Shown here piece by piece: positions 3,278 through 43,695 of a DNA stretch of 64,000 nt. How positions within the stretch are numbered: position 1 is the stretch's first letter; the number at the start of each line of letters is the position of its first letter. The DNA comes from a virus (lineage: Duplodnaviria > Heunggongvirae > Uroviricota > Caudoviricetes). Under the pieces are notes generated by a model. The model did no database searches. It was not told the DNA's origin and worked only from the letters and a program-made list of their open reading frames with translations. The DNA is taken from positions 69,058 to 133,057 of IMG/VR virus record IMGVR_UViG_2910903598_000005. One strand, given 5' to 3'. The translations under genes were made by a program, and so were the position numbers.

Positions 3278-3284
3278 ATTTTTC

Positions 3285-3313: not shown

Positions 3314-3402
3314 AATAACTGTGATAAGGATATCACATAAATAAATATTGATTATATCTTAACACAAGATATAAAAGGTTTCAAGATAAAACAAAAAAGT
3401 TC

Positions 3403-3431
3403 TTGACAAAACCTAACAAATATGTTAAGAT
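3403..3431 (+). promoter_or_regulatory. Rightward promoter P2 (TTGACA, 17 nt, TAAGAT) with operator O3 cCTAACAaataTGTTAAg in its spacer
   Basis: TTGACA at 3403-3408, TAAGAT at 3426-3431. The flanking sequence ttcttgac...cctaacaaatatgttaa is a near-exact duplicate of P1. Confidence 0.55.
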
Positions 3432-3439
3432 ATAAACAA

Positions 3440-4890: not shown

Positions 4891-4910
4891 ATTTAGAAAG
4901 AAGGTATATT

Positions 4911-5309
4911 ATGAGTATTACATATAACAAAGAAATCAACAAAAAAATCAGAATCTATTTAACGGAATCAATCAAAGATTGGTTAGAAGCACACGAGTAT
5001 GATAAAAAGGACTGTGAAAACAGTCCTTTTCTTACTTACTGGAATATCATAACAGATGAAATCAACGGCGGTATTTATGATAAATACACCAACTTTGAAA
5101 AGTGGAAACATTTCCACATGGGGTTGCGTGGTTTTGGTGCTGATATTTATTGTCTATACAAAGATGATGAAAGAGTATCAAGTATTATCATGAAAGACTG
5201 GACTGGAAGAGAAGTTGTTGACGTGGAAGAAACGGCAAACTTAATGGATTATCTTTGCTTTAGGGAGTTTAGAAAGCTACTTAAAAAAGAAAGTAATATT
5301 ATTATTTAG
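4911..5309 (+). CDS. hypothetical protein (132 aa)
   Basis: Ribosome-binding site AGAAAGAAGG. Confidence 0.55.
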   Translation: MSITYNKEINKKIRIYLTESIKDWLEAHEYDKKDCENSPFLTYWNIITDEINGGIYDKYTNFEKWKHFHMGLRGFGADIYCLYKDDERVSSIIMKDWTGREVVDVEETANLMDYLCFREFRKLLKKESNIII

Positions 5310-11972: not shown

Positions 11973-12002
11973 AATCGGAAACAATTAAATAAAAATACTT
12001 AG

Positions 12003-20695: not shown

Positions 20696-21646
20696 ATGGC
20701 AGCAACACAGTTTGAAGTTATTAAAACAGCAAACAATAATAACGCAGAAGAACCTGAAGCAAAGATCAAAAGACGTAAGGACGGAAATCCTAAATGGACT
20801 CGATCTAATAAACAAAAAGGCGTATCATCTTTAGTGTATCCAATTAAGAACAAAGAAAAATTTGCAGCCTTTAATGCATATTTTAGAGACCAGATTGATA
20901 AATCGTACACAGAGTACAAACGATATGTAGCTGCCAGAAACAATCTTTTGGTTGCAGTTGGAAACAATACAGCATATCGTATCTCTGATATCGTCAGACT
21001 CAAATGGGGCGATTTATTAGACGATAAGACTCGTAAGCAGGAAAAGAAAACAAAGAAATTCAGAACTGTATACTTTAACGATTTGGTAACTGAAGCAGTG
21101 GATATTTTCTTTGAAGCTGTTGCAGGAACTAAATATGATGTCAAGATTGATGGCGAAGTGCCAATGGATGATTATGTTTTTGGAACATGTAAGTCTGGAT
21201 CAGGACACATGACTGAAGCAAATGCTTTGGATTTTGTTAAAAAAGGTGCTAAAGCAGTTGGAATTGAGGACAATATTGGTACGCATACATTACGAAAGAA
21301 CTTTGTGTATTGGACACTTGTCGATCATAAAGATGATCAGAACGTATTGTATACACTTATGAGATTATTGAATCATAGTAGCCCTGCAATGACGTTTTTA
21401 TATGCTACAATTACAGAAGAGGAAACTCATGTGTTATTTGATGATATTGCTCAGACGTACAAGGATATTATCAGCGGAGCATTTAACGGATTAAAGGAAA
21501 ATGTTATTAATGTGAGTTATGATAGAGTTATGGAGATTATCAAGTGTGCTTATGAGACTGGTAAGGATGATGCAGATCAAAATGATAGGGTACATGAGGA
21601 CAATATGCAGGCACTAAAAGAGCTGCTGGAAGGAGTTATTTTATGA
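20696..21646 (+). CDS. tyrosine site-specific recombinase (XerC/D-like phage integrase family)
   Basis: Catalytic-domain motifs present: Arg in YRISDIVRLKWGDL, HxxR in GTHTLRKNF, and LLNHSSPAMTFLY with the Tyr nucleophile. Ribosome-binding site GAGAGGAGAG. Confidence 0.7.
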   Translation: MAATQFEVIKTANNNNAEEPEAKIKRRKDGNPKWTRSNKQKGVSSLVYPIKNKEKFAAFNAYFRDQIDKSYTEYKRYVAARNNLLVAVGNNTAYRISDIVRLKWGDLLDDKTRKQEKKTKKFRTVYFNDLVTEAVDIFFEAVAGTKYDVKIDGEVPMDDYVFGTCKSGSGHMTEANALDFVKKGAKAVGIEDNIGTHTLRKNFVYWTLVDHKDDQNVLYTLMRLLNHSSPAMTFLYATITEEETHVLFDDIAQTYKDIISGAFNGLKENVINVSYDRVMEIIKCAYETGKDDADQNDRVHEDNMQALKELLEGVIL

Positions 21647-22389
21647 TATTTGTAACAGGAGATACGCATGGGGATTGGATGACTCGATTAAACAGTCATT
21701 CTTTCCCAGAAGGAGTAGAGTTGACTAAAGATGATTACGTGATCATTTGCGGAGATTTTGGATTGTGGCATGACACAAAAGAAGAACGACATAATCTGGA
21801 ATGGTTGGACAACAAACCATTTACTACTTTGTTTGTATGTGGGAACCATGAAAATTATGATCGGCTGTACGAATATCCTGTAGAAGAATGGAATGGAGGA
21901 AAGATTCATAAGATTCGTGATTCTACCTTCCATCTCATGCGAGGACAGGTATTTGATATTCAAGGCAAGAAATTCTTTACGTTTGGCGGAGCAAGTTCCC
22001 ATGATGTTCAGGATGGAATTTTAAAACAAGACGATCCAAGAATTAATGAATGGTACAGAGATTACGACAAAATGTTTAGGATCAATCATACGTCATGGTG
22101 GAAAGAAGAGCTTCCTTCAGAGGAGGAAATGACAGAAGGTATGATGAATCTGAAGCAGAATGGATTGCAAGTGGATTATATAATTACACATAGTCCATAC
22201 GCATCTGTATTATGTCAAATGGATCAAGGATCAGGAGTGTATAAAACAGATATATTGACGGATTATTTGCAAGAGATTAAAGAATCTGTTGAATATAAAA
22301 AGTGGTTCTTTGGACATATGCATGTGAACCAGAACTTTCCAGGAGATAATGCGATTGCAATTTACGAACAAATTATTAGGATTTTATAG
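21643..22389 (+). CDS. calcineurin-like metallophosphoesterase (phage Ser/Thr phosphatase-like)
   Basis: Motifs VTGDTHG, ICGDFG and CGNHEN. Start overlaps the recombinase stop (ATGA). Confidence 0.7.
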   Translation: MIFVTGDTHGDWMTRLNSHSFPEGVELTKDDYVIICGDFGLWHDTKEERHNLEWLDNKPFTTLFVCGNHENYDRLYEYPVEEWNGGKIHKIRDSTFHLMRGQVFDIQGKKFFTFGGASSHDVQDGILKQDDPRINEWYRDYDKMFRINHTSWWKEELPSEEEMTEGMMNLKQNGLQVDYIITHSPYASVLCQMDQGSGVYKTDILTDYLQEIKESVEYKKWFFGHMHVNQNFPGDNAIAIYEQIIRIL

Positions 22390-22400
22390 GAGAATTTTGT

Positions 22401-22721
22401 ATGAAGATAAATACGATTAGACAAAATAAGGAAGAAAAGAAAGCAAACCAGAATCTTATGTGGATTTCAGCAGAGATTCCACCACTAAAACCAGATAACG
22501 CATCACGTTATATGAGATATAAAACATATCCTGTAATCGTGGATTACAAATATAATGATGGATGTGTAGACGAAGTGCTTGATTTCTGTGACTATGATTT
22601 TGAAGAAAAGAAATGGAAACTGGATAATTCTCATAAAGTTAGACAGTATTTCCCACTTCCAAGTAAGCACAAAGTAAAGTGTTCGAACAAAAAGAGAACA
22701 TTTGTTCGAAAAATATCTTGA
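22401..22721 (+). CDS. hypothetical basic protein (106 aa)
   Basis: Ribosome-binding site TAGGAGAA. Confidence 0.45.
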   Translation: MKINTIRQNKEEKKANQNLMWISAEIPPLKPDNASRYMRYKTYPVIVDYKYNDGCVDEVLDFCDYDFEEKKWKLDNSHKVRQYFPLPSKHKVKCSNKKRTFVRKIS

Positions 22722-22793
22722 TTTTGTTCTATGGTAGCATTATAATAAGAAATGTAGAGATTCTTTGTTCACAATAAAAATTAACTTTCTTTC

Positions 22794-22831
22794 TTGCACC
22801 TATTGACAGGGTGCAAACAGTATGGTATATT
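22794..22831 (+). promoter_or_regulatory. Promoter (TTGACA, 16 nt, TATATT) inside palindromic operator TTGCACC-N9-GGTGCAA. Second copy of the cassette seen at 36-73.
   Basis: ttgcacctattgacagggtgcaaacagtatggtatatt, compared with the rc of 36-73: ttgcacccgttgacaaggtgcaaaaagtatgttaaaat. Confidence 0.55.
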
Positions 22832-22881
22832 TAATTCATGAAAATAAAAAATGCAACTGGGGAAAGTTGAGGGACGTAAAA

Positions 22882-23331
22882 ATGAACGGATATACTAACA
22901 AAGAAAGAAAAGGAAACGATAACAGAAAAAGAAAAGACTATGTATATGGCAAATATCAAAATCCTCAAGTTTGGGGAATATATTTTGCAGATTTGCCGAA
23001 AATTGAAGGTAGTCACATCTTGCATGGAAAAAGACCAGTTATTGTATATTCTAATAATATTTGTAACAATACGAGTACAGAGATTAACGTGTATCCAATT
23101 ACAAAAAAATTAAGGAACTGGATACCGACACATGTAACCATTTATCCAAATACCAGTAATGGATTAAAAATGGTATCACAGGTGTATTTAGAGCAAGGAA
23201 GAACAATTCCAAAGAATAATCTTTTAGAGTATTGGGGAAGAATATCTGATCTATCTTTAATGTTAAAAATAGGACATGGCATTTTAATACAAAACGGCAT
23301 GTTATCGTACATGAATGCAATGGCATCCTAG
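22882..23331 (+). CDS. MazF/PemK-like endoribonuclease toxin with a 50-aa basic N-terminal extension. No adjacent MazE-like antitoxin was detected.
   Basis: GIYFADLPKIEGSHILHGKRPVIVYSNN...INVYPITKK...GLKMVSQVYLEQGRTI matches the PemK/MazF core pattern (G.i..v.l.p..G.E..k.RPvvVls...........vvPiTs). Ribosome-binding site GAGGGACG. Confidence 0.6.
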   Translation: MNGYTNKERKGNDNRKRKDYVYGKYQNPQVWGIYFADLPKIEGSHILHGKRPVIVYSNNICNNTSTEINVYPITKKLRNWIPTHVTIYPNTSNGLKMVSQVYLEQGRTIPKNNLLEYWGRISDLSLMLKIGHGILIQNGMLSYMNAMAS

Positions 23332-23333
23332 AA

Positions 23334-24362
23334 ATGGAGAATATTATGAATAATAAAGAATTGATACAAAATTATATAGATTCTCACGTATCAGAATCAC
23401 GTCGCCCAACATGGAATTGGTTATTAGATTCTGATATTGCGGACGACAATGAATCTGGGTTAACGTATGCACCAGGTACAATCCAAGAGGCTATATTATC
23501 AGATACTAGAGGTAAAAAAACCAAAAGTATGAATTCTATTAAAAAAAGATATGACCAGCTCGTTAAACTATATACTTATGCATATGAACAAAATTACATT
23601 AAATATAATCCATTTGTTAATGATAAATTTATAAACTTGCAATTAGCAGTTGATATATATTTTTCAAATAGAGTTAATGTTAATTATGTTACACCAGATA
23701 AAATAAATGCGTTTATTTCGAATCTGATGTCGTGCAATGCATCAGCCGATACCAAATTGAATACTAGATTTCACATTGTGAGTTTATATAATGGGATAAA
23801 TGGAAAGGAGTTAAGAAATCTAAAATTCTCAGATATTAATCAAAATGATTTAACAATTTTTGGGAAACCAGTCTCCAAAGATTTTATCGAGACATTGAAT
23901 GAATATAAATTGAAAATGGGAGATACGAATATATATGATGATTTTGTATTAATACCACGAAAAAAATGTAATAATATAGAAGAATATCAAGCAGAGCAAA
24001 AGAGGATATATAATAATGTGCAGTCTCAATTAGAATTAACTGGTAACACTTTATCTTATGAAAAATTGACAACCATTGATGTTATTAATTCTGGTTTTAT
24101 ACAATATTTAAAATCTAAAATGGATATCAAGGCAATTGCAGATTTATATTATATTAAATCAAAAGAAGGAATCGCACGATCTGTAATCGCACGTCAATTT
24201 AGTGATATTGCAATTGATTTTTATTATAATTATTATATATCATATAGAATAAAAAAGAAACAATTTAGCGATCGTCAAACGGTAATCGGTAAAAGTATTG
24301 GTTACCTATATAAAGACGAGGACTATAAGAATTATCGTGCACATCAAATAATGGCAGAATAA
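23334..24362 (+). CDS. hypothetical 342-aa protein. The N-terminus weakly resembles an integrase core-binding (SAM-like) domain, but no catalytic RHRY residues are evident.
   Basis: Starts 3 nt after the MazF-like stop (operon). KRYDQLVKLYTYAYEQNYIKYNPFVND resembles the recombinase N-domain pattern. Confidence 0.5.
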   Translation: MENIMNNKELIQNYIDSHVSESRRPTWNWLLDSDIADDNESGLTYAPGTIQEAILSDTRGKKTKSMNSIKKRYDQLVKLYTYAYEQNYIKYNPFVNDKFINLQLAVDIYFSNRVNVNYVTPDKINAFISNLMSCNASADTKLNTRFHIVSLYNGINGKELRNLKFSDINQNDLTIFGKPVSKDFIETLNEYKLKMGDTNIYDDFVLIPRKKCNNIEEYQAEQKRIYNNVQSQLELTGNTLSYEKLTTIDVINSGFIQYLKSKMDIKAIADLYYIKSKEGIARSVIARQFSDIAIDFYYNYYISYRIKKKQFSDRQTVIGKSIGYLYKDEDYKNYRAHQIMAE

Positions 24363-24376
24363 AGGAAGGTATATGT

Positions 24377-24742
24377 ATGGACAATCAAATATTAGAAATG
24401 TTAGCAGCGAATCAATCAAATCAAATGCATATTGATGTACTTGATTTACACTCATCAGAAATGTCATCGTGGTTTCTGAGCGAATATAAGATTCGAGCAG
24501 ATGATAGAAAGATGAAGATCTATGGCAAAGATAAAGATCTTTCATATCATTGGATCGAATTTATTCAAGATGAGAATTTGTTCTCTCATATTAGGCAGGA
24601 CGACATATTTGACATAATCAAATGCCTGCAATTTACATACAAAGAGAGATACAATGTTGGCATAAAAATACAGACAATAAAAAAGAAAGCAGAAGTCTTT
24701 GGTAAAACTTCTACTTTCACACAAACTAAAAATTTCAACTAA
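24377..24742 (+). CDS. hypothetical protein (121 aa)
   Basis: Ribosome-binding site AAGGAAGG. Confidence 0.5.
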   Translation: MDNQILEMLAANQSNQMHIDVLDLHSSEMSSWFLSEYKIRADDRKMKIYGKDKDLSYHWIEFIQDENLFSHIRQDDIFDIIKCLQFTYKERYNVGIKIQTIKKKAEVFGKTSTFTQTKNFN

Positions 24743-24818
24743 ACAAATCATAGATAACAAAAAAAGATTTTTTGAATCTACCGTGTTGGCAGCACGATAG
24801 AAAATCGAATTTGATATT

Positions 24819-24876
24819 TAGAATTGTTTAATCTGAAAGGATAATAATATCCTTTAAATCATTATAACAATTCTAA
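24819..24876. repeat. Nested inverted repeats (TAGAATTGTT...AACAATTCTA around AAAGGATAataaTATCCTTT) forming a long hairpin or cruciform
   Basis: Read directly in the 190-bp intergenic region. Confidence 0.5.
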
Positions 24877-24934
24877 ACATGTTCGTCAACATGAAATTTT
24901 TTCCAAAAAATACAACTAAATATAGGAGTGATGT

Positions 24935-25585
24935 ATGAAATACATAATTACGAATGAAGAGTTCTATGTGAAAAGAGATCATGCAAGAAATAAATACGTT
25001 CGTGATAATCGTAAGTCTGAAGCTACTCAGTTTACCTCCAAGCAAGCAAAGCACATTTTAGGTTTGAAGCATAAATATACGTGGATGAAAGACGGATTTT
25101 ATGCCAGAGAAATTGAACTAGGTAAAGTTGGAAAACCTATGGAATCTAGTGAAATAATGCGTAAAGGTAATGGAAATTGCTTTATGGATTGGGAATGCGA
25201 TAATACATTGATCGACAATATAGAGACTGAGGAAAGAGCTATAGTAGGACTTCTAGCATATGACTCAGATCAATTAGGAGAAAAGAAGTTTGAATTAGAG
25301 CAGGCATTATCATATGCCGATTCTGCCAGAAGTGATATTCTTCATGCGATTGAGTTTAAAAAGATTGATGCTGCGAAACGTGCAGTGATTATTGGGTATC
25401 TTAAAACCTTACAAGAATTACACAGAAAAATCAAGAATTGTATTCGATACATAGAAGTGATGCAGAATTGCATGGATAATCAGAAAGATATATGTACTTT
25501 GAAGAAAGAATTAAAAGATGCAGAACATAAGTCGTATGTCGGCAGGACAAAGTATTATGAGCTGATCCAGAATATAATTGGGTAG
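24935..25585 (+). CDS. hypothetical protein (216 aa)
   Basis: Ribosome-binding site TAGGAGTG. Confidence 0.5.
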   Translation: MKYIITNEEFYVKRDHARNKYVRDNRKSEATQFTSKQAKHILGLKHKYTWMKDGFYAREIELGKVGKPMESSEIMRKGNGNCFMDWECDNTLIDNIETEERAIVGLLAYDSDQLGEKKFELEQALSYADSARSDILHAIEFKKIDAAKRAVIIGYLKTLQELHRKIKNCIRYIEVMQNCMDNQKDICTLKKELKDAEHKSYVGRTKYYELIQNIIG

Positions 25586-25668
25586 AGTTTCTTCCTTATT
25601 ATATATGATGACTCGCACAGGAATTTGTGCAAAATTAAAATGTAAAATTATAACTTAGGAGGTATTTA

Positions 25669-26493
25669 ATGACAGAAGAAAAGAATGGTGTAAATGAAGC
25701 ATTGAATACGTTAGTGTTTAATAATGATGAGTTTGGAAATATTCGCACAGTGATTTTAGATAATAATCCGTGGTTTGTAGGGAAAGACGTAGCCAGTTGC
25801 CTTGGGTATGTAGATACGGTAAATGCATTAAAGAAACATATTGATGCCGAAGATAAGCGATTATTTCTAAGGTGTCAAATCGCCACCTTAGAAAATGTAC
25901 CAAACAGAGGACTTACATTTATTAATGAATCTGGTCTATATGCTTTAATTTTTGGAAGCAAGCTTGATAGTGCGAAAGAATTTAAACATTGGGTGACATC
26001 CGAAGTTCTTCCACAGATCCGTAAGACAGGTGGTTATATCCCAATTGATAAAGAAGATGATGATTTAACTATCATGGCGAAAGCATTGAATATTATGCAA
26101 AACACTTTGGTACAAAAGGATGAACTATTAGCCCAAAAAGAAGAAGTTATCAATCAGCAGAAACCACTTGTTGATTTTGCCAATACAGTCAGTGCCACAG
26201 AAACAATGGTTGACATGAAAACAATGGCAAAGCTTCTTGAGAAAGAAAATCAAGATATTCATATGGGCAGAAACAAATTATTTGCGTGGTTAAGAAAAGA
26301 AGGGTATCTCATGTCAGATAATACCCCATATGAAAGATATGTTAAGCAGGGCATTTTCAAATTAACAGAAAGTGAAGTTGAAACTAAGAATGGAAACAAG
26401 TTGATCACCAAAACATATGTGACTGGCAAAGGGCAATTATACTTGGCAAAGAAATTAGCACAATACTTTGCCTCACAGAGTGCATCAGCTTAG
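25669..26493 (+). CDS. Bro-N / KilAC-domain phage antirepressor
   Basis: IRTVILDNNPWFVGKDVASCLGY...NESGLYALIFGSKLDSAKEFKHWVTSEVLPQIRKTGGY is a canonical Bro-N domain. Ribosome-binding site TAGGAGG. Confidence 0.75.
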   Translation: MTEEKNGVNEALNTLVFNNDEFGNIRTVILDNNPWFVGKDVASCLGYVDTVNALKKHIDAEDKRLFLRCQIATLENVPNRGLTFINESGLYALIFGSKLDSAKEFKHWVTSEVLPQIRKTGGYIPIDKEDDDLTIMAKALNIMQNTLVQKDELLAQKEEVINQQKPLVDFANTVSATETMVDMKTMAKLLEKENQDIHMGRNKLFAWLRKEGYLMSDNTPYERYVKQGIFKLTESEVETKNGNKLITKTYVTGKGQLYLAKKLAQYFASQSASA

Positions 26494-31285: not shown

Positions 31286-32746
31286 ATGATTGAAGTAATT
31301 GGAACAGTGGTACCAGTGGTTGTTGCGGTAGGTGGCGTAGGAGCTATTATCGGTAGCGGCTATGTCAAAGCAAGTCCAGATAAAGCTTATATTATTTCTG
31401 GACTTAGAAAGACACCTAAGACATTAATTGGTAAGGCAGGGTTAAAAATCCCATTCTTTGAAAAAGCAGATCATCTTAATCTTGAGTTAATTCCAATTGA
31501 TGTTAAGACATCAAGTTCTGTGCCTACAGCAGATTATATCAATATCAATGTAGATGCAGCGGTCAATGTAAAGGTTAGCAGTAATCCAGAAAGATTAAAA
31601 CTTGCAGCAGAAAACTTCTTAAATAAGCCAGTAGGCGATATTGGACAGGTCGCAAGAGAAGTCCTTGAAGGTAATATGCGAGAGATCGTTGGAAAGATGA
31701 GCCTCGAAGAAATGGTTTCTGATCGTCAGAAATTTGCACAGCTTGTTACAGAAAATGCGAAGCCAGACCTTGCTGCAATGGGATTAGATATCATCAGTTT
31801 TAATGTGCAGAATTTTATGGATGATAATGATGTTATTGAAAATCTTGGTGTAGATAATGTTGTTAAAATTCAGAAGAAGGCTGCAATTTCCAGAGCTGAA
31901 AGCGAAAGAGATATTGAAAAAGCAAAAGCAATGGCTGAAAAAGAAGCGAATGATGCAAGGGTTGAGTCAGAAACAGCGATCGCAGAAAAGAATAACAATC
32001 TGGAAATTAAAAAATCTGAACTTGAGAAGATTTCAAAAGCAAAGAAGGCTGAGGCAGATGCAGCATACAAGATTCAGGAAGAAAAATCACGTAAAGAAAT
32101 TGAAGTTGTAACTGCGGATGCTAATATTATGCGTCAGGAAAAGGAAATTGAACTGAAGCGTAAAGACGTTGAGGTAACAGAGCAGACATTAGATGCGCAG
32201 ATTAAGAAACAAGCAGAAGCTGAAAAATATGCTTCTCAGCAGAGAGCAGATGCAGACTTATACAAGAGACAGAAAGAATCTGAAGCTAATAAATATGCTA
32301 AAGAAAAAGAAGCTGAATCTACAAAATATGCTATGGAACAGGAAGCTGAAGGTATTCGTGCAAAGGGTGTAGCAGAAGCCGAGGCAATCAAAGCTAAAGG
32401 TATTGCTGAAGCAGAAGCAATCGAAAAGAAAGCAGAAGCTATGAAACAGATGGGTAAAGCTTCTATTGTAGAAATGATGTGCCAGATGTTCCCAGAAGCA
32501 GTTAAAAATGCAGCCGCACCATTAGGAAATGTAGGAAGTATCACTATGTATGGAGAAGGAAACACAACAAAATTAACAAAAGATATTATGAATGTTGTGA
32601 ATCAGGTATCAGATGGTGTTAAAGGATCTACAGGTGTTGATCTTGCAAAGATGCTAAAAGATTTTGTTTCTGAAGATAAAGAAGTAGAATCTACAGATAA
32701 TGAAAATCTTGGAACACCAGAGCCAGCAGATTACCGTGAGTTCTAA
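31286..32746 (+). CDS. flotillin-like SPFH/Band-7 membrane protein (FloT/YqiK-like)
   Basis: N-terminal transmembrane helix, an SPFH core (LIGKAGLKIPFFEKADHLNLELIPIDVKT...), and a long Ala/Glu/Lys-rich coiled coil with EA repeats (AEAEAIKAKGIAEAEAIEKKAEA). Ribosome-binding site AAAGGAGA. Confidence 0.8.
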   Translation: MIEVIGTVVPVVVAVGGVGAIIGSGYVKASPDKAYIISGLRKTPKTLIGKAGLKIPFFEKADHLNLELIPIDVKTSSSVPTADYININVDAAVNVKVSSNPERLKLAAENFLNKPVGDIGQVAREVLEGNMREIVGKMSLEEMVSDRQKFAQLVTENAKPDLAAMGLDIISFNVQNFMDDNDVIENLGVDNVVKIQKKAAISRAESERDIEKAKAMAEKEANDARVESETAIAEKNNNLEIKKSELEKISKAKKAEADAAYKIQEEKSRKEIEVVTADANIMRQEKEIELKRKDVEVTEQTLDAQIKKQAEAEKYASQQRADADLYKRQKESEANKYAKEKEAESTKYAMEQEAEGIRAKGVAEAEAIKAKGIAEAEAIEKKAEAMKQMGKASIVEMMCQMFPEAVKNAAAPLGNVGSITMYGEGNTTKLTKDIMNVVNQVSDGVKGSTGVDLAKMLKDFVSEDKEVESTDNENLGTPEPADYREF

Positions 32747-32760: not shown

Positions 32761-33495
32761 ATGACAATTATTATTATTTGTGTAATTGTAGCGATTATCG
32801 CATATTTACAATTTACTAAAAACGGAAAGCAGATTAAAAATGTGGCATCTGGAACAGTTACAGAAAAGATCAAAGAAAATGCAATGACTCCAGAGGGAGC
32901 AAGAGCCAGATATAATACTGCAATTAAAGAGAAACAAGACTTTTATAAGAAAACAATGGGTACATACACAACGGTAGCTGGTAGATTGGCAACAATGGAA
33001 GATGATCTCAAAGAAACAAAAGAAGAAATTTCTAAAACCGAGGCAATGATCAACCAGTACATTGATAATCATGATGATAAAAAAGCAATGTATTATGCTC
33101 AAAAATTAGCCACGCTAAAGGCACAGAAATCAGTGTACGAAAAGAAAATCCCAGAGTTGCAAACCACAAAGGATAAACAGGAAGAAATTAAAAACCAGGC
33201 ATATGATCAGCTCATTAAGTTAAAAGGCGAAAAAGATACTGTAGTTCTCCAGATGGAGGCAGATCAGCAGATTGCAGAATTACAGAAAAATTTAGATCAA
33301 TATAATAGTTCAAATGTTGCTCAGGAAGGTTTGGAAGAGGTTCGAGAAGGAGCAAAGAAACTTAGCGAACAAGCCAAAGGCGTTGCTATTGCGTATGAAT
33401 CTAGTGCAGAAACATTAGATTATCGTATGGAGCAGGATGAACGACAGCAGGAAGCTCAGGCTATCTTAGATCAGATGAAAAACGCTCGTAAATAG
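32761..33495 (+). CDS. membrane-anchored coiled-coil protein, PspA/IM30-like helical-hairpin candidate
   Basis: Single N-terminal transmembrane helix MTIIIICVIVAIIAYLQF, then about 200 aa of heptad-like coiled coil loosely alignable to PspA. Ribosome-binding site TAGGAGAA, 14 nt after the flotillin stop. Confidence 0.45.
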   Translation: MTIIIICVIVAIIAYLQFTKNGKQIKNVASGTVTEKIKENAMTPEGARARYNTAIKEKQDFYKKTMGTYTTVAGRLATMEDDLKETKEEISKTEAMINQYIDNHDDKKAMYYAQKLATLKAQKSVYEKKIPELQTTKDKQEEIKNQAYDQLIKLKGEKDTVVLQMEADQQIAELQKNLDQYNSSNVAQEGLEEVREGAKKLSEQAKGVAIAYESSAETLDYRMEQDERQQEAQAILDQMKNARK

Positions 33496-33536
33496 CAGAT
33501 AAATTCATCTACAAAAATTAATTTCACAAACATAAA

Positions 33537-33622
33537 ACTGGCATTTTATGACTCTATAAAACACAATATATAGTGATTATCCAATTATTGAACCACTATA
33601 TATAGTTGTATAAAGTGCCAGT
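33537..33622 (+). other. Long imperfect hairpin (ACTGGCA...TGCCAGT with inner ATATATAGTG / CACTATATAT) ending 4 nt before the tRNA 5' end
   Basis: Read directly. A possible precursor or leader structure, or a small RNA. Confidence 0.35.
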
Positions 33623-33625
33623 CAT

Positions 33626-33763
33626 GGAAACATAGCTCAGTTGGTAGAGCAGGCAATACATAAACATTCATTTTTCTACCTCCATATAAGTATTTTTATT
33701 TATTTACATTTAATTTTCATCACATATAAATTGCCGACACAGGTTCGATTCCTGTTGTTTCCA
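33626..33763 (+). tRNA. tRNA-like gene interrupted by an insertion of about 75 nt in the anticodon loop (identity undetermined)
   Basis: Perfect 7-bp acceptor stem GGAAACA/TGTTTCC. D-arm GCTC-AGTTGGTA-GAGC. Anticodon stem GGCAA ... TTGCC separated by about 74 nt. T-arm ACAGG-TTCGATT-CCTGT. Discriminator A. Terminator immediately downstream. Confidence 0.55.
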
Positions 33764-33765
33764 CT

Positions 33766-33805
33766 AAAAAAGACCTCAACCTAAATGGTTAAAGTCTTTT
33801 TGGTT
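33766..33805. terminator. bidirectional rho-independent terminator between the tRNA (+) and the HTH gene (-)
   Basis: AAAAAGACC...GGTtaAAGTCTTTTT, with A-run and T-run on both sides. Confidence 0.6.
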
Positions 33806-34007
33806 AATCGTTTGGTATGACCTCGATAACATCTTCAACTTTGCAATCAAGATATAAGCAAATTTTGTCAATGTTTTCGAGACTGATATACTGATTCTTT
33901 GCCATCTTGGCAATTGTACCAGACCCCATATTTAAAGCGGTTCGTAAATCAGATTTTGTCATACCCTTTTTCGCTAAAGTTACGAAAAGCGGTTTATAAC
34001 TTATCAT
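33804..34007 (-). CDS. small XRE/Cro-like helix-turn-helix DNA-binding protein (67 aa)
   Basis: MISYKPLFVTLAKKGMTKSDLRTALNMGSGTIAKMAKNQ... has an HTH pattern. Minus-strand ribosome-binding site GGAGGT 6 nt upstream. The longer track ORF lacks a ribosome-binding site. Confidence 0.6.
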   Translation of the reverse strand: MISYKPLFVTLAKKGMTKSDLRTALNMGSGTIAKMAKNQYISLENIDKICLYLDCKVEDVIEVIPND

Positions 34008-34088
34008 ATGATATACCTCCACATCTATATTGTAACATATTATATACAGGATGTAAAATAAAATATTCAAGAAGTTGAAGATTTTGTA

Positions 34089-34117
34089 TTGACACTATGT
34101 GCAAGAAGTGGTATATT
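34089..34117 (+). promoter_or_regulatory. sigma70-like promoter (TTGACA, 17 nt, TATATT) divergent from the HTH gene
   Basis: TTGACA at 34089-34094, TATATT at 34112-34117. A minus-strand TTGAAT/TATATA pair also lies in this intergenic region. Confidence 0.5.
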
Positions 34118-34173
34118 ATATTCAACAAATGAAAGGTAAACTTCAAGAAAATGAAATATGAAGGAGTGAGAAA

Positions 34174-40587: not shown

Positions 40588-41541
40588 ATGAAATGTTTTT
40601 ATCATGTTGATCAGGACGGCATCGTATCTGGTTTCTATGTCAGAAAAGCTTGCGAACAGCGAGGTTTAGAGTTTAAACCAGAAGACTTCCGAAAAATTAA
40701 TTACGGCATGAAATTCCCGTTTCATGACATTAAACAGGATGAATTTGTATTCATTGTAGACTACAGCATTGAGCCAGAAGAAATGTGGCAGTTGCTTAGT
40801 ATTACAAAGAATGTATTTTGGATCGACCATCATCAGTCTACGATTGAAGCGTATAAAGATTTCAAGTGTGATGTAAAAGGAATCAGAATTACTGGAGCGG
40901 GTATTTCAGGAGCGAATTTGACATGGTTATATTTTAAATATATGTGTGATGAAAATTGGGAGCAAATTGAGAGGACGGATGAGAAAAATGTAAAAAGATT
41001 ACTCAATATATATAAATATAAAGCAGATTATCCAAAACTGGCAGAATATACAGCCATGTGGGATACATTTTATTTTGGTGAAACGTCAAAACAATTCGTA
41101 AAAGCATTTCACTATGCATTTGAATCGTATGATTTTGATGCGTTAAGTCCATTGCTAAACACGTTAAATAAAGATCAAGGAATTTATGAAGCAGCAAAAA
41201 TTATTGGTGATATGATAGCAGATGGCTTATCAATTATTGAGTATTTAGCAGCAAATGCAGAACAATATCTTAGAGCATATGGTTTTGAAACCATATTTGA
41301 GGGACATAAAGTCTATGCAATCAACAGAGCGTTAATCAATTCTGATTTCTTCGAATCTATTGATGCTTCAAAATATGATATGTTTATTGGTTTCTCATTC
41401 AATGGTAGTATGTGGGAATATCAGTTACGATCAGCAGAACAGGATAAAGTAAATGTATATGAACTTGCTGTGAAATATGGTGGTGGCGGTCATCCGAATG
41501 CAGCTGGATTTAGAAGTGAGAAATATGTGTTAGGAGTGTGA
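40588..41541 (+). CDS. DHH-DHHA1 family phosphoesterase (NrnA-like nanoRNase / pAp phosphatase)
   Basis: Motifs HVDQDGIVSG, WIDHHQS and C-terminal GGGGHPNAAGF. Ribosome-binding site AAAGGGGTAAAG. Confidence 0.7.
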   Translation: MKCFYHVDQDGIVSGFYVRKACEQRGLEFKPEDFRKINYGMKFPFHDIKQDEFVFIVDYSIEPEEMWQLLSITKNVFWIDHHQSTIEAYKDFKCDVKGIRITGAGISGANLTWLYFKYMCDENWEQIERTDEKNVKRLLNIYKYKADYPKLAEYTAMWDTFYFGETSKQFVKAFHYAFESYDFDALSPLLNTLNKDQGIYEAAKIIGDMIADGLSIIEYLAANAEQYLRAYGFETIFEGHKVYAINRALINSDFFESIDASKYDMFIGFSFNGSMWEYQLRSAEQDKVNVYELAVKYGGGGHPNAAGFRSEKYVLGV

Positions 41542-41544
41542 TGT

Positions 41545-42330
41545 ATGTCAAAGAAAAATACAAGAGAAATTGAACGTGCTTTTAGTAAAAGCAGAGATCC
41601 AGATTGGGAAGCCGATGTAGAAATTTATGGAAAAAGGATTTTAAAAACAGTACGTGGTATTTGTCTTGGTGATGAATGGACAGAAATTAATTCATTGAGA
41701 AATAAGGATCGGATTGAGTTAGCGGAGATGTTTTGTAATTTTGACGATCATAATCCACATTTTAATCTTAGCCCTCAATATGTTTTATTGGATAAGTTTT
41801 CTATAACATCTCCTGCGATATTGTGTAGCAATGAAATAGTTATGAAAAATGGCAAAGTTTTGAGTGTTGATAATATATCAGCAAATCTATCAGGCGAAAA
41901 TGAGGTATACAAGATTTATTCAAATACGAAATATGATGATTATACATATTATGATGAATCAAAAAATTTAGTATTTGAATTAGCATCAAAAGATGTTGAT
42001 AAGATAATCCGATTTATGAGAGATTTTATGGATGTATTGCGTGACAGTAAGTTAACAAAGTATAGAAATAGTAGTTTTTTATGGAGACTATTTAACACTC
42101 TTGATATGCCATATTTTAAACAAACATATTCCATGAATGATTTGAAAAAATATACAAACACATTTAGATCTGAGGTTTGTGGTCAACTAGAAGAAACTAT
42201 TCCTAATTTTAAATATACTGGAGTTCCAATGGGCGGGTATATTGAAAGATATTTTGAATTAAGTTATGTAGAGGAAGTACAAAAATTTATTAAAGAACAG
42301 GAGGCTAAGAAATGTGAAGAAACTAAATGA
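41545..42330 (+). CDS. hypothetical protein (261 aa)
   Basis: Coupled to the upstream gene. Confidence 0.5.
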   Translation: MSKKNTREIERAFSKSRDPDWEADVEIYGKRILKTVRGICLGDEWTEINSLRNKDRIELAEMFCNFDDHNPHFNLSPQYVLLDKFSITSPAILCSNEIVMKNGKVLSVDNISANLSGENEVYKIYSNTKYDDYTYYDESKNLVFELASKDVDKIIRFMRDFMDVLRDSKLTKYRNSSFLWRLFNTLDMPYFKQTYSMNDLKKYTNTFRSEVCGQLEETIPNFKYTGVPMGGYIERYFELSYVEEVQKFIKEQEAKKCEETK

Positions 42331-42865
42331 TGAACAGCGAAAGCTGATTGAAGATAATTATTCTTTGATTTGGCATTTGCATGAGAAGTATTTTACAAAA
42401 TTTAAAGATTTTGATACATATATGGATCTTGGTCGTATGGCAATTTGCAAAGCAGCATTAAAATGGGATGAGTCTAAAGGTAATTTTGGGACGTATTTTA
42501 GATGGGTATTACAGTCAGAAATTAATAAATATTATATAAAATGGCATAGCCCAACAGAGAAAATGAACAGAAATGCGGAATCATTGGATGCACCTGTTGA
42601 CGAAAGAGTTGACGCAGAAGAATTAACAATTGGTAGTTTGCTTGTGAGTAACGATGACATAGAGAGTCAAGCACTAACAACAGTATATTATCAAGGAGAA
42701 TTTAACAAATTATCAGACAAGCAGAAGAAAATTATATATATGTTACTTGATGATATTGAGCATAAATACATAGCCAAAGAATTTGGAAAGAGTATTCAAT
42801 GGGTAAGTTGGCAACTTGGTAATATTAAAAAAATAATGCATAGGGCAAAGGCGGTGAGATCATGA
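42314..42865 (+). CDS. sigma-70 family RNA polymerase sigma factor, copy 1
   Basis: Region 2-like YMDLGRMAICKAALKWDESKGNFGTYFRWVLQSEINKY and region 4 HTH LSDKQKKIIYMLLDD...YIAKEFGKSIQWVSWQ. GTG start after GGAGG. Confidence 0.65.
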   Translation: MKKLNDEQRKLIEDNYSLIWHLHEKYFTKFKDFDTYMDLGRMAICKAALKWDESKGNFGTYFRWVLQSEINKYYIKWHSPTEKMNRNAESLDAPVDERVDAEELTIGSLLVSNDDIESQALTTVYYQGEFNKLSDKQKKIIYMLLDDIEHKYIAKEFGKSIQWVSWQLGNIKKIMHRAKAVRS

Positions 42866-43695
42866 CAATTGAAGAAGTGAAAGATTACATAAACTCGTCT
42901 ACAGAGTATGATTTTTTGCGAGATTATCCTCATAAAATCGCTTTTCTCACACTAGGTGGAAGTTATGCTTACGGAACAAATACAGAGGATTCTGACATTG
43001 ATTTACGTGGTGTTTTCCTTAGTGATAAAAGAGAGATTTTGTTGAATAATAATCCAAATAATCTTGAAAAGACAGACGATCATAAAGATGTTGATACTGT
43101 GTTACATTCGCATATTAAGATGATCAATATGCTTGCAAAGGGTAATCCTACGTTTTTAGAGCTGTTATATTTTGCACCAGACCGCTATTTATATATATCT
43201 GATATTGGTATGGAACTGATCAAAAATAGAGATATGTTTTTATCTAAGAGAGTTTATCATGCATATAAAGGATATATATGTGATTGCCTGACTCGAACGA
43301 GTTTTAAGTATTATAAAAATAAAGATTCAGAGAAAGAAAAGCAAAAGGCGGAACGATACGCTAATAAATCAATGATGCACGCAGTTCGATTATTGTTACA
43401 GGGCATTGAATTATTGCATAACGGAACAATGTTAGGATCTATGGATGACATAGGAAAAGATCTTGTAAAGATCAAAGAAGGATATAATAGTACGCATAAA
43501 ACATATAGATTTAGCAAACACAATGAGCATACAGAATATTTCCCAAATCAGTCATACGATGTTTTTATTGAAGGATTACTTTATCAATTTGATTATGATT
43601 ATATGAATACTGATTTGCCAGACGAACCAGACTGGGATCGTATCAATAACTTCTTGATGACAACAAATGAACGAATTGTGAGAGGAATGGTGTAA
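42862..43695 (+). CDS. Pol-beta-superfamily nucleotidyltransferase (RlaP-like)
   Basis: GGSYAYGTNTEDSDIDLRGVF (G-S...SD.D) and a helical region KSMMHAVRLLLQGIELLHNGTM. Confidence 0.55.
   Translation: MTIEEVKDYINSSTEYDFLRDYPHKIAFLTLGGSYAYGTNTEDSDIDLRGVFLSDKREILLNNNPNNLEKTDDHKDVDTVLHSHIKMINMLAKGNPTFLELLYFAPDRYLYISDIGMELIKNRDMFLSKRVYHAYKGYICDCLTRTSFKYYKNKDSEKEKQKAERYANKSMMHAVRLLLQGIELLHNGTMLGSMDDIGKDLVKIKEGYNSTHKTYRFSKHNEHTEYFPNQSYDVFIEGLLYQFDYDYMNTDLPDEPDWDRINNFLMTTNERIVRGMV

What the first reader, a model, noticed from the sequence alone, without database searches (positions are those of the whole stretch)
33626..33763. tRNA-like gene with an apparent insertion of about 75 nt inside the anticodon loop
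What the sequence shows: perfect acceptor (GGAAACA/TGTTTCC), D-arm and T-arm (ACAGG-TTCGATT-CCTGT) with discriminator A. The anticodon stem halves GGCAA (33652-33656) and TTGCC (33731-33735) are separated by about 74 nt of AT-rich sequence containing CTACCTCC. Without removing this insert no cloverleaf forms.

Established knowledge: bacterial and phage tRNA introns are group I (more than 200 nt) in the anticodon loop. Nothing of this size is known, and it is far too short for a group I ribozyme.

Inference, three possibilities:
- a novel small intervening sequence removed by an endonuclease/ligase or by an unknown RNA-based route;
- a deliberately disrupted pseudo-tRNA;
- a tRNA-like structural RNA.

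A long hairpin at 33537-33622 abuts its 5' end and a terminator follows, so it is probably transcribed.
Basis: partly seen in the sequence, partly recalled or inferred. Interest (0 to 1): 0.65.

Follow-up and report, generated by a model that had tools for sequence, protein, structure and literature searches.

The report
tRNA-shaped phage RNA, giant anticodon loop
A family of large human-gut phages carries one gene that folds like a textbook tRNA except that its anticodon loop is replaced by about 72 unstructured, almost G-free bases. It most likely makes a stable tRNA-shaped small RNA rather than a spliced, decoding tRNA, and what that RNA does is still unknown.

Summary
Window 33626-33763 (+) matches Rfam tRNA (46.4 bits, E 1e-6) and has canonical acceptor, D and T arms. 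A 5-6 bp anticodon stem closes a 72-74 nt loop.

The interrupted gene is present in every related genome recovered from IMG/VR and gut metagenomes (65 loci with full flanks, 51 distinct haplotypes). No uninterrupted copy was found. Nucleotide diversity is 0.02 in the tRNA body and 0.038 in the insert, against 0.09-0.19 at neighbouring third codon positions. The element is therefore constrained, not a freely decaying pseudogene.

An intron is poorly supported:
- There is no group I core, no bulge-helix-bulge motif and no Rfam ribozyme.
- No splice choice gives a normal loop: either A at position 33 with CAU, or an unnatural AUA anticodon.
- Insert length (56-71 nt by ARAGORN's call) and the 5' junction vary between genomes.

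The insert is predicted to be unstructured. It has 1 G in 72 nt and carries CAU-N7-CCUCC, the antisense of an ideal ribosome-binding site.

Best reading: a tRNA-derived, non-decoding stable RNA, cut out by RNase P and RNase Z, that displays a single-stranded loop. A role as an anti-RBS regulator is speculative.

The closest precedent is the unexplained short "introns" in Lak megaphage tRNA genes. Interest is moderate.

The parts
32761..33495 (+). Upstream 244-aa gene, the last gene of the long + strand block. The element is probably co-transcribed with it.
   Evidence: ORF list and PHROG 33389. There is no terminator or conserved promoter between it and the element. It served as the synteny anchor for finding relatives.
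33537..33622 (+). Long hairpin that ends 3 nt before the tRNA 5' end. The outer stem is ACTGGCA / TGCCAGT. The inner ~60 nt (about 33549-33610) is an optional insertion, present in some genomes and absent in others.
   Evidence: The long form folds at -25 kcal/mol, z -5.2. The short form (L039) has z -4.2. The presence/absence polymorphism and paired changes in the inner stem are seen. Diversity of the optional part is 0.12.
33626..33657 (+). 5' half of the tRNA-like body: acceptor 33626-33632, D arm 33635-33650, and the 5' strand of the anticodon stem 33652-33657.
   Evidence: Rfam tRNA hit, ARAGORN with introns allowed, minimum-free-energy cloverleaf. Diversity 0.016.
33658..33729 (+). 72-nt expansion of the anticodon loop. 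Composition is T34 A25 C12 G1 and it is predicted to be unstructured.
   Evidence: Folding energy is only -4.2 kcal/mol, z -0.8. It is the only stretch with one G or fewer in the + strand coding part of the window; P about 1e-6 from base composition. Diversity 0.038. ARAGORN calls an insert of 56-71 nt across relatives. It is not repeated elsewhere.
33669..33683 (+). CAT-N7-CCTCC block. Its reverse complement is GGAGG-N7-ATG, the shape of an ideal ribosome-binding site. CCTCC lies at 33679-33683.
   Evidence: Read directly from the sequence. P(CCTCC present) is 0.016 in composition-preserving shuffles. CCTCC is retained in the most divergent variant, L271. The loop bases 33677-33687 can form 11 bp with the RBS of the neighbouring HTH gene.
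33705..33725 (+). The two invariant ACAT repeats, TACAT at 33705-33709 and ACAT at 33722-25. Two more lie at 33658-61 and 33664-67. The insert holds 7 CAT triplets in all.
   Evidence: Counts and shuffle tests: P(CAT>=7) = 0.001 and P(ACAT>=4) = 0.003. All four are kept in L271.
33730..33763 (+). 3' half of the tRNA-like body: anticodon stem 33730-33735, 3-nt variable region 33736-33738, T arm 33739-33755, acceptor 33756-33762, discriminator A at 33763. No CCA is encoded.
   Evidence: Rfam and ARAGORN. Diversity 0.025.
33764..33803 (.). Imperfect hairpin flanked by A6 and T5. It is a likely bidirectional terminator shared with the convergent HTH gene.
   Evidence: Folds at -12 kcal/mol, z -3.4. 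The simple terminator scan did not flag it.
33804..34007 (-). Convergent 67-aa HTH (XRE/Cro-like) regulator gene. Its RBS TGGAGGTA (34021-34014) is complementary to the loop.
   Evidence: Translation; weak PHROG repressor hits. The 8-mer occurs only 3 times in the window and never at a + strand RBS. Promoter-like sites lie at 34057-34029.

Best explanation
This is a tRNA-derived but non-decoding gene for a stable, tRNA-shaped small RNA of about 140 nt. The inserted sequence is part of the product, not an intron.

Proposed pathway:
1. It is transcribed as the tail of the upstream + strand operon. (Inferred: no terminator or conserved promoter lies between them.)
2. RNase P cuts at G33626. This releases the RNA and leaves the upstream mRNA ending in a strong hairpin. 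(Inferred from canonical substrate features: a 7-bp acceptor stacked on a 5-bp T stem, with U at -1.)
3. The 3' end is made at A33763 by RNase Z or at the terminator. CCA is then added, since none is encoded. (Inferred.)
4. The acceptor, D and T arms form the tRNA elbow, which gives nuclease resistance and correct processing. (Shown only in silico and by conservation.)
5. The 72-nt, nearly G-free loop stays single-stranded and is the working part.
6. Least certain step: the loop's CAU-N7-CCUCC block, the exact antisense of a Shine-Dalgarno sequence plus start codon, pairs with the translation-initiation regions of target mRNAs. The best candidate in the window is the convergent HTH regulator, with 11 bp over its RBS.

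I put steps 1-5 at about 0.5 and step 6 at about 0.2.
For: - The body is a near-perfect tRNA: Rfam 46.4 bits despite the insertion, with all conserved tertiary nucleotides present.
- The element is present and always interrupted in every clade member recovered: 65 loci with full flanks and 51 haplotypes. No uninterrupted copy exists in IMG/VR.
- Diversity is low: body 0.016-0.025 and insert 0.038. Third codon positions of flanking genes show 0.09-0.19, and the optional 60-nt hairpin insert shows 0.12. Mann-Whitney P runs from 2e-6 to 8e-3.
- Of 9 stem substitutions, 7 give G-U pairs and cells are 99.6% paired.
- C>T outnumbers G>A 13:1 in the element, against 21:19 at neutral sites. That is the pattern expected if the + strand RNA fold is what is selected.
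- The loop is predicted to be unstructured and is uniquely G-depleted.
- CCUCC and the ACAU repeats survive in the most divergent variant.
- Loop bases 33677-33687 pair over 11 bp with the HTH RBS. That duplex ranks 3rd of 112 initiation regions.
- Related phages carry ordinary tRNAs (L316), or tRNA-like elements without a normal anticodon arm (L076, L079), at the same module boundary. The latter show three compensatory T-stem pairs.
Against: - There are no expression data.
- No double compensatory change occurs in the window's clade; it is too shallow.
- Insert diversity is not significantly below that of other intergenic DNA (P = 0.065).
- The statistical signals for RNA-level selection are marginal (P about 0.04-0.05).
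- No target stands out. The best loop-to-TIR duplexes are no better than for shuffled loops.
- The HTH match is only 3rd of 112 and shows no covariation with the loop.
- The reverse complement of the insert resembles a generic initiation region of this phage. The anti-RBS look could therefore be a relic of an inverted gene start rather than a design.
- The C>T changes inside CCUCC are what mutation alone would give.
Confidence: 0.45

Rival explanations
1. This is a genuine interrupted tRNA. The ~67-nt sequence is removed by an unknown RNA-based route, or by endonuclease plus ligase, to give a decoding tRNA. The anticodon would be CAU (Met or Ile2) if the cut is at 37/38, or AUA if it is at 32/33.
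For:
- The body most resembles phage tRNA-Met and tRNA-Ile(CAU) genes.
- CAU followed by A sits exactly at the 5' edge of the insert. That is where group I introns interrupt CAU tRNAs (own knowledge).
- The phage has an RNA-repair-type RlaP nucleotidyltransferase and DHH phosphoesterases.
- Lak megaphage tRNA genes carry similar short insertions that were published as introns.
Against: - No splice choice gives a canonical loop. The CAU version has A33. The only versions with U33 and a purine at 37 have the unnatural anticodon AUA on a body without a Tyr-type long variable arm (and direct reading).
- Several haplotype groups have an extra A after the stem, which would give an 8-nt loop. One has CAT changed to CGT. 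The A-run after CATA varies from 1 to 3.
- There is no bulge-helix-bulge motif (direct reading).
- There is no group I intron or small ribozyme at E <= 1.
- There is a single G, in mid-insert, so no terminal G at a 3' splice site.
- No RNA ligase, RtcB, PNK or splicing endonuclease was found among about 50 window ORFs scanned.
- The insert has no predicted structure for a ribozyme.
Confidence: 0.12
2. This is a dead tRNA gene: a pseudogene left after an insertion, or a decayed intron, in the anticodon loop. It persists only because the clade is young and the region recombines as a block.
For: - The whole intergenic region is highly conserved, even in genomes whose upstream protein is only 73% identical. 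That points to recent mosaic exchange.
- There is no double compensatory change.
- Insert diversity is not clearly below that of other intergenic DNA.
- The insert tolerates indels in its T-runs.
- Relatives show a range of aberrant tRNA-like remnants at this locus.
Against: - Diversity of body and insert is 2.4-9 times lower than at adjacent third codon positions, and about 3-6 times lower than in the optional 60-nt hairpin insert about 50 nt away.
- No member has lost or truncated the element.
- Every conserved tertiary nucleotide of the tRNA core is intact.
- Stem changes are biased towards G-U, and G>A changes are nearly absent.
Confidence: 0.2
3. The element is mainly a processing signal. 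A tRNA-shaped RNase P site at the end of the operon gives the upstream mRNA a hairpin-protected 3' end, as in MALAT1 and mascRNA. The released tRNA-like RNA is a by-product, and its loop content is irrelevant.
For: - A strong, covarying hairpin ends 3 nt before the RNase P site in both its long and short forms.
- No promoter is conserved between the upstream gene and the element.
- RNase P and RNase Z need only the acceptor and T arms (own knowledge), which would explain tolerance of a giant loop.
- L076 keeps only the acceptor, D and T arms.
Against: - A terminator-like hairpin 1-40 nt downstream would already give a stable 3' end.
- The D arm and anticodon stem, which RNase P does not need, are also conserved.
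- The insert sequence is itself constrained.
Confidence: 0.13
4. The functional strand is the minus strand. GGAGG-N7-ATG in the insert would start a small minus-strand ORF that reads through the tRNA 5' half.
For: The reverse complement of 33669-33683 is a perfect RBS plus ATG. In the window it opens a 28-aa ORF (direct reading).
Against: - The ORF is not conserved. It is 28 aa in the window, longer in short-hairpin genomes, and 9 aa in the variant group (9 or more contigs) that lacks one base before the ATG.
- No minus-strand promoter is predicted between the terminator and the ATG.
- The C>T excess fits + strand RNA pairing.
Confidence: 0.03
5. The feature acts at the DNA level: an attachment site for integration into a host tRNA gene, an operator array, or a small mobile insertion.
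For: - A tyrosine recombinase gene lies at 20696-21646.
- ACAT motifs repeat in one orientation.
- Both the hairpin and the anticodon stem carry insertions in their loops.
Against: - No bacterial genome among 185,579 species holds the 18-mer that spans the anticodon stem, variable region and T stem inside a tRNA or a prophage. All 16 hits are chance matches in coding sequence.
- The recombinase gene is 12 kb away.
- The insert occurs once per genome and only in this context.
- Removing one copy of the short ACATA repeat does not restore a 7-nt loop (direct reading).
Confidence: 0.04

Closest known systems
Short 'enigmatic introns' in Lak megaphage tRNA genes (Devoto et al. 2019, PMC6784885)
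   Same: - Both come from gut phages.
- Both have an insertion under 100 nt in the anticodon loop of an otherwise normal tRNA gene. The Tyr example there spans 93 nt.
- Both are missed by bacterial tRNA finders.
- In both, the insert sequence is almost identical across genomes, and no splicing mechanism is known.
   Different: - Lak insertions sit at the canonical 37/38 position of a normal loop, with U33 and a sensible anticodon. Some contain structured, even tRNA-like, sequence.
- Versions with and without the insert coexist in Lak phages.
- Here no normal loop can be rebuilt, the insert is unstructured and G-free, and no insert-free copy exists.
Group I introns in bacterial and phage tRNA genes (for example tRNA-Ile(CAU) of Azoarcus and tRNA-fMet(CAU) of cyanobacteria; own knowledge)
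   Same: The insertion lies in the anticodon loop of a CAU-type tRNA body, right after CAU.
   Different: - These introns are at least about 200 nt, with a conserved P1-P9 core and a terminal G.
- Here the insert is 72 nt with a single G, no predicted structure, and no Rfam group I hit.
mascRNA at the 3' end of MALAT1, and tRNA punctuation generally (own knowledge)
   Same: A tRNA-shaped module sits at the end of a longer transcript. A protective structure lies just upstream of the RNase P site. The anticodon region is free to diverge.
   Different: These are eukaryotic nuclear RNAs. mascRNA is small (about 61 nt) and has no expanded loop. Processing has not been tested here.
C-rich, anti-Shine-Dalgarno small RNAs of Firmicutes (RoxS/RsaE type; own knowledge)
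   Same: A C-rich motif in an unpaired, AU-rich context is complementary to GGAGG-type ribosome-binding sites. The likely host is a Firmicute, since the nearest cultured relatives are Clostridioides and Bacillus phages.
   Different: Those RNAs are hairpin-based, not tRNA-shaped, and have validated targets. No specific target was found here.
T4 RNAC and RNAD, stable small RNAs from the T4 tRNA gene cluster (PMC3014915)
   Same: They are phage-encoded stable RNAs made from a tRNA region, and their function is still unknown.
   Different: No sequence or structural relationship was tested. T4 also encodes ordinary tRNAs alongside them.
tmRNA
   Same: It has a tRNA-like acceptor and T-arm module, with a long non-tRNA segment where the anticodon arm would be.
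   Different: There is no G3-U70 pair (the element has A3-U70). The element has a full D arm, no pseudoknots and no conserved tag reading frame, since insert lengths differ by non-multiples of 3. ARAGORN finds no tmRNA.

Membership tests
Canonical bacterial/phage tRNA | Cloverleaf with acceptor, D and T arms and the conserved tertiary nucleotides | tested here: met
   Rfam RF00005 scores 46.4 bits against a gathering score of 29. The minimum-free-energy fold has all four stems. U8, A14, G18G19, A21 and GTTCGAnnC are present.
Canonical bacterial/phage tRNA | 7-nt anticodon loop with U33 and a purine at 37 | tested here: not met
   The loop is 72-74 nt. ARAGORN in default mode finds nothing. Every way of joining the two loop ends gives either A33 or the anticodon AUA (and direct reading).
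Canonical bacterial/phage tRNA | Variable region of 4-5 nt, or a long arm | tested here: not met
   Only GAC (33736-33738) lies between the anticodon stem and the T stem.
Group I intron in a tRNA gene | Ribozyme core (P1-P9) of roughly 200 nt or more, with a terminal G at the 3' splice site | tested here: not met
   The insert is 72 nt. No Rfam intron hit at E <= 1. Folding energy is -4.2 kcal/mol, z -0.8. The only G is at 33690, in mid-insert.
Archaeal/eukaryal protein-spliced tRNA intron | Bulge-helix-bulge motif at the exon-intron junctions | tested here: not met
   Hand threading was done for both the 5-bp and 6-bp anticodon stems. The required 4-bp central helix cannot form (UAAA against AUAA, and AUAA against UAAA), from the sequence.
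Archaeal/eukaryal protein-spliced tRNA intron | Splicing endonuclease and RNA ligase available | tested here: inconclusive
   None was found among about 50 ORFs of the window. However, only 64 kb of a genome of about 160 kb was seen, and the host is unknown.
Small self-cleaving ribozymes (hammerhead, twister, pistol, hatchet, HDV-like) | Match to the family covariance model | tested here: not met
   Apart from tRNA, there is no hit at E <= 1 in 33400-33900.
Lak-type short insertions in phage tRNA genes | Short insertion in the anticodon loop of a phage tRNA gene, conserved across genomes | tested here: met
   compared with PMC6784885.
Lak-type short insertions in phage tRNA genes | A normal anticodon loop is restored by removal at 37/38, and insert-free alleles exist | tested here: not met
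   The restored loop would have A33. Some variants would have 8-nt loops. No insert-free copy was found.
tmRNA | G3-U70 pair, tag reading frame and pseudoknots | tested here: not met
   The element has A3-U70. ARAGORN finds no tmRNA. Insert lengths of 68, 72, 73, 74 and 75 nt break any reading frame.
RNase P / RNase Z substrate (tRNA-like processing module) | Acceptor stacked on the T arm (12 bp), an intact elbow, and no encoded CCA for RNase Z | tested here: met
   These sequence features are present.
RNase P / RNase Z substrate (tRNA-like processing module) | Actual cleavage at 33626 and 33763 | not testable with these tools
   This needs in vitro cleavage assays or end-mapping of the RNA.
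Trans-acting anti-Shine-Dalgarno small RNA | Unpaired C-rich seed | tested here: met
   CCUCC lies in a loop predicted to be unstructured and is conserved in L271.
Trans-acting anti-Shine-Dalgarno small RNA | A specific complementary target, with co-variation | tested here: inconclusive
   The loop forms 11 bp with the HTH RBS. That duplex ranks 3rd of 112 and shows no covariation. The whole loop does no better than shuffled loops against + strand initiation regions. Host mRNAs could not be tested.
Small mobile insertion (MITE-like) | Multiple copies, or occurrence in other contexts | tested here: not met
   There is one copy per contig, always in this gene. No other copy lies in the window.

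The most novel reading that the evidence does not exclude
Gut Firmicute phages use a natural 'tRNA scaffold'. A tRNA body ensures RNase P/RNase Z processing, CCA addition and stability. Its anticodon loop has been turned into a long, G-free, single-stranded effector that acts as an anti-RBS regulator, or as a decoy for a host RNA-binding or RNA-cleaving factor. The anticodon-arm-less tRNA-like elements at the same locus in related phages (L076, L079, next to a CCA-adding enzyme gene) would then be further members of one class of top-half tRNA mimics.
Probability: 0.25. Interest if true: 0.8.

Novelty: new variant of a known kind. Interest (0 to 1): 0.55.

Why it matters
If the RNA is stable and unspliced, it would be a natural counterpart of the engineered tRNA scaffold and a new architecture for phage small RNAs. 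Standard tRNA finders and sRNA screens both miss such genes.

If it is spliced instead, bacteria or their phages must have a route for removing short tRNA introns that is neither group I nor archaeal-type. That would also explain the Lak megaphage cases.

Either outcome can be tested with one small-RNA-seq or northern experiment. Existing gut metatranscriptomes may already contain the answer.

Tried and rejected
- **Minus-strand small ORF starting at the GGAGG-N7-ATG in the insert.** Rejected: length and reading frame are not conserved.
- **tmRNA-like tag frame.** Rejected: indels are not multiples of 3, the element has A3-U70, and ARAGORN finds no tmRNA.
- **Mobile or repeated element.** The 21-mer of the insert occurs only in this context, once per contig. 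There is no second copy in the window.
- **attP or host tRNA homology.** The genome-contig scan gave 16 chance hits in coding sequence, with no tRNA and no prophage. There is no match in plasmids and no near match in cultured phages.
- **An uninterrupted allele.** None in IMG/VR.
- **A specific antisense target in the window.** No extended complement exists. Duplex energies are no better than for shuffled loops. A 16-nt AT-only antisense match at 11986-12001 lies in the length-variable part of the insert and was judged to be chance.
- **Scan for GGAGGTAGAAAAATG in IMG/VR.** It returned generic ribosome-binding sites from unrelated phages and was uninformative.
- **The insert as an inverted duplicate of the neighbouring HTH gene start.** The alignment is not significant: P = 0.25, and 32 of 96 other initiation regions score at least as well.
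- **Decoy for a UACAU-specific MazF-type RNase.** This was prompted by the PemK gene at 22822-23331 and the TACAT repeats. It is unsupported: TACAT is not avoided in phage transcripts, with observed/expected = 1.19.
- **Rfam tRNA model on the distant tRNA-like elements (L076, L077, L079).** No hit at E <= 5. Their tRNA-likeness rests on ARAGORN at lowered thresholds, folding and T-stem covariation only.
- **A dedicated promoter upstream.** The TTGAAC-N15-TATAAA in the window is not conserved among long-form or short-form hairpins.
Full report
**Setting**

The window is part of a phage genome with 33% G+C. Nearly all genes lie on the + strand.
- Related contigs are 140-215 kb and come from human gut metagenomes.
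- The nearest cultured relatives are only distantly similar: large Clostridioides and Bacillus phages.
- There is no nucleotide match in cultured phages or in plasmids.

**The observation**

- Rfam's tRNA model hits 33626-33763 at 46.4 bits (gathering score 29, E 9.6e-07 for the window). It treats 81 nt as an insertion. This is the only Rfam hit in the 64 kb.
- ARAGORN finds nothing by default. With introns allowed it calls a tRNA with a 67-nt intron.
- The ARAGORN answer depends on the option. It gives Tyr(AUA) with the intron at 32/33, or Met(CAU) with the intron forced to 37/38.
- The same intron-permissive run on 0.95 Mb of unrelated phage DNA gives a single intron call. The hit is therefore not background noise.
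- ViennaRNA's minimum-free-energy fold of the 138 nt has all four tRNA stems, a 6-bp anticodon stem and one giant loop (z -3.0). The loop alone is essentially unstructured (-4.2 kcal/mol, z -0.8).
- The upstream hairpin (z -5.2) and a downstream hairpin flanked by A6 and T5 (z -3.4) are real.
- The body has every conserved tertiary nucleotide but only a 3-nt variable region.

**Distribution**

- An exact 28-mer of the 3' half occurs in 34 IMG/VR contigs.
- Synteny searches with the upstream 244-aa protein gave 75 IMG/VR loci and 79 metagenome loci.
- In every locus whose protein is 65-100% identical and whose DNA reaches far enough downstream, the interrupted gene is present. The ARAGORN-called insert is 56-71 nt long.
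- No uninterrupted version exists in IMG/VR.
- An 18-mer that spans the anticodon stem, variable region and T stem has only chance matches in coding sequence among the genomes of 185,579 bacterial species. There is therefore no host tRNA twin and no integrated prophage copy.
- Compared with annotated phage tRNAs, the body is closest to tRNA-Met and tRNA-Ile(CAU).

**Is it under selection?**

Diversity was measured among 51 distinct haplotypes of the region.

| Region | Nucleotide diversity |
|---|---|
| tRNA halves | 0.016 and 0.025 |
| Insert | 0.038 |
| Third codon positions, three flanking genes | 0.09-0.19 |
| First and second codon positions | 0.017-0.036 |
| Other intergenic DNA | 0.055-0.07 |
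| Optional 60-nt segment of the upstream hairpin | 0.12 |

- Both insert and body are significantly less diverse than third positions (P about 2e-6 overall; 0.008 and 0.018 against the adjacent gene alone). Both are also less diverse than the optional segment (P about 1e-4).
- Neither differs significantly from other intergenic DNA (P = 0.065 and 0.13).
- On the cloverleaf, 99.6% of cells pair. Seven one-sided changes all give G-U pairs. One sequence (L052) has two breaks. There is no double compensatory change, so covariation cannot be shown in this shallow clade.
- C>T outnumbers G>A 13:1 in the element, against 21:19 at neutral sites. This is the pattern expected if the + strand RNA fold is what matters. 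The test is marginal (about P = 0.04).
- Overall, the element is constrained and the + strand RNA is the likely functional form. The evidence is moderate, not decisive.

**Why not an intron**

- No Rfam intron or ribozyme family matches at E <= 1.
- At 72 nt, with a single mid-insert G and no predicted structure, the insert cannot be a group I ribozyme. It also offers no terminal G.
- Threading the junctions onto a bulge-helix-bulge motif fails for both possible stem lengths.
- Joining the first k and last 7-k loop bases gives only two kinds of loop:
  - U-A-CAU-A-A, with A at the near-universal U33 position;
  - (A/U)-U-AUA-A-A, with an anticodon unknown in bacteria, on a body that lacks the Tyr-type long variable arm.
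- The 5' junction is not fixed. Several haplotype groups carry an extra A after the stem, which would make an 8-nt loop. The A-run after CATA varies from 1 to 3. One variant has CGT in place of CAT.
- The 3' junction (TTTTCATCACATATAAA) is nearly invariant.
- About 50 ORFs of the window were scanned. No RNA ligase, RtcB, PNK, splicing endonuclease or CCA-adding enzyme was found.
- An RlaP 'RNA repair' nucleotidyltransferase (42862-43695) and DHH phosphoesterases are present. Only 64 kb of a genome of about 160 kb was seen.

**What the insert looks like**

- Composition is T34 A25 C12 G1. The + strand of the window averages 21% G, giving P about 1e-6 for one G or fewer.
- Only one other place in the window is as G-poor, and it lies in the region of reversed skew near 2.3 kb.
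- The insert holds 7 CAT triplets and 4 ACAT motifs (shuffle P = 0.001 and 0.003) and one CCTCC (P = 0.016).
- CAT-N7-CCTCC (33669-33683) is the exact antisense of GGAGG-N7-ATG.
- The most divergent variant found (L271) has lost or changed much of the intervening sequence. It keeps CCTCC, all four ACAT motifs and the 3' junction.
- The 3' half of the insert changes length by slippage in T-runs. Region lengths are 68-75 nt among the 51 haplotypes.
- The insert is not a mobile element.
- Its reverse complement resembles generic translation-initiation regions of this and other phages. The anti-RBS look could therefore be designed, or it could be a relic of an inverted gene start.
- The minus-strand ORF it would open is not conserved.

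**Possible targets**

- No extended complement exists in the window. Whole-loop duplex energies against + strand initiation regions are no better than for shuffled loops.
- One lead remains. Loop bases 33677-33687 (UACCUCCAUAU) can form 11 bp (10 Watson-Crick and 1 G-U) with AUGUGGAGGUA (34024-34014). That sequence is the RBS of the convergent 67-aa HTH regulator gene.
- The 8-mer core occurs only three times in the window and at no + strand RBS.
- The duplex ranks 3rd of 112 initiation regions.
- Natural variants on both sides mostly keep pairing, but they do not co-vary.
- I treat this lead as a hypothesis with a probability of about 0.2.

**The neighbourhood in relatives**

The same module boundary is a tRNA locus in more distant phages.
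- L316 has an ordinary tRNA-Gln there.
- L079, L080 and L108 have a 135-nt element with acceptor, D and T arms and two long AT-rich hairpins in place of the anticodon arm (z -4.6).
- L076 has the same scaffold reduced to 57 nt with no anticodon arm at all.
- Between those two forms, three T-stem pairs differ by compensatory double changes (TAGGG/CCCTA against CGAGG/CCTCG).
- In both forms the element sits just upstream of a CCA-adding enzyme gene.
- These elements do not reach Rfam's tRNA model at E <= 5, so the link is suggestive only. It fits the idea that these phages keep tRNA 'top halves' for something other than decoding.

**Upstream hairpin**

- Its outer stem, ACTGGCA / TGCCAGT, is conserved and ends 3 nt before the tRNA 5' end.
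- Its loop is variable. In about half of the haplotypes it carries a 60-nt insertion that extends the hairpin, with paired changes in the inner stem.
- No promoter is conserved between the upstream gene and the element. Co-transcription with the operon, followed by RNase P release, is therefore the simplest route. That route would also leave the upstream mRNA with a hairpin-protected 3' end.

**Verdict**

- The feature is real, conserved and constrained.
- The best-supported reading is a tRNA-derived, non-decoding, stable tRNA-shaped RNA in which the expanded loop is retained (about 0.5). An anti-RBS function of the loop is the leading but weak mechanistic guess.
- The rivals are a functionless relic (0.2), a pure processing signal (0.13) and a true spliced tRNA (0.12).
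- Published precedent exists for short, unexplained insertions in gut-phage tRNA genes: the Lak megaphages (PMC6784885). T4's RNAC and RNAD are a reminder that stable RNAs from phage tRNA regions remain unexplained (PMC3014915).
- This case differs from the Lak ones. No normal anticodon loop can be rebuilt, and the insert is a G-free single strand.

Noticed in passing
window 57304-61745: The DNA polymerase III alpha gene is split. The PHP domain and the N-terminal part lie at 57304-58578 and the rest at 59751-61745. A NUMOD3 homing-endonuclease-like ORF (58746-59435) sits between them. This could be a group I intron or a split gene.
   Followed up: no
window 40588-43695: A cluster with a DHH phosphoesterase (40588-41541), an unassigned 261-aa ORF, a sigma-factor-like protein (42314-42865) and an RlaP 'RNA repair pathway' Pol-beta nucleotidyltransferase (42862-43695, 85 bits). 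This may be an RNA-end repair module.
   Followed up: partly
window 20696-26493: This stretch holds a tyrosine recombinase (20696-21646), a metallophosphoesterase, a PemK/MazF-type toxin (22822-23331), a second weak integrase-like ORF (23334-24362) and a Bro-N/KilAC antirepressor (25669-26493). Together they hint at a temperate or phage-plasmid lifestyle.
   Followed up: partly
window about 33549-33610 (inside hairpin 33537-33622): A 60-nt segment is present in some genomes and absent in others. It sits in the loop of the hairpin just upstream of the tRNA-like gene. It extends the hairpin and shows paired changes, but its diversity is high, at 0.12.
   Followed up: partly
L076 5081-5137; L079 5061-5195; L077 about 5075-5231: Distant relatives carry tRNA-like elements without a normal anticodon arm at the syntenic place. 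These are a 57-nt mini form, a 135-nt form with two AT-rich hairpins, and a 157-nt form. L076 and L079 differ by three compensatory T-stem pairs and lie immediately upstream of a CCA-adding enzyme gene. The element might act as a leader or regulator for that gene.
   Followed up: partly
L079 about 4850-5040: A noncoding block is conserved among L076-L080, between a small membrane ORF and the tRNA-like element. It might be a structured RNA. There is no Rfam hit.
   Followed up: no
window 34008-34173: Strong divergent promoter-like sites lie between the minus-strand HTH gene and the next + strand block: TTGACA-17-TATATT on the + strand and TTTACA-17-TACAAT on the - strand, both preceded by TG. 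The layout resembles a Cro/CI-type switch.
   Followed up: no
window 2000-4000 (G-poor stretch about 2342-2420): This is the only region with negative GC skew, and it holds the only other 72-nt stretch with one G or fewer. It probably marks a minus-strand transcription unit or a module boundary.
   Followed up: no
window 31286-32746: An SPFH/Band 7 flotillin-like protein is encoded two genes upstream of the element. This is unusual cargo for a phage.
   Followed up: no
L316 3215-3661: In a relative whose anchor protein is 34% identical, the same boundary holds two strong promoter-like sequences, a normal tRNA-Gln(UUG) and the start of a second tRNA-like sequence. This locus is therefore an ancestral tRNA site.
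   Followed up: partly
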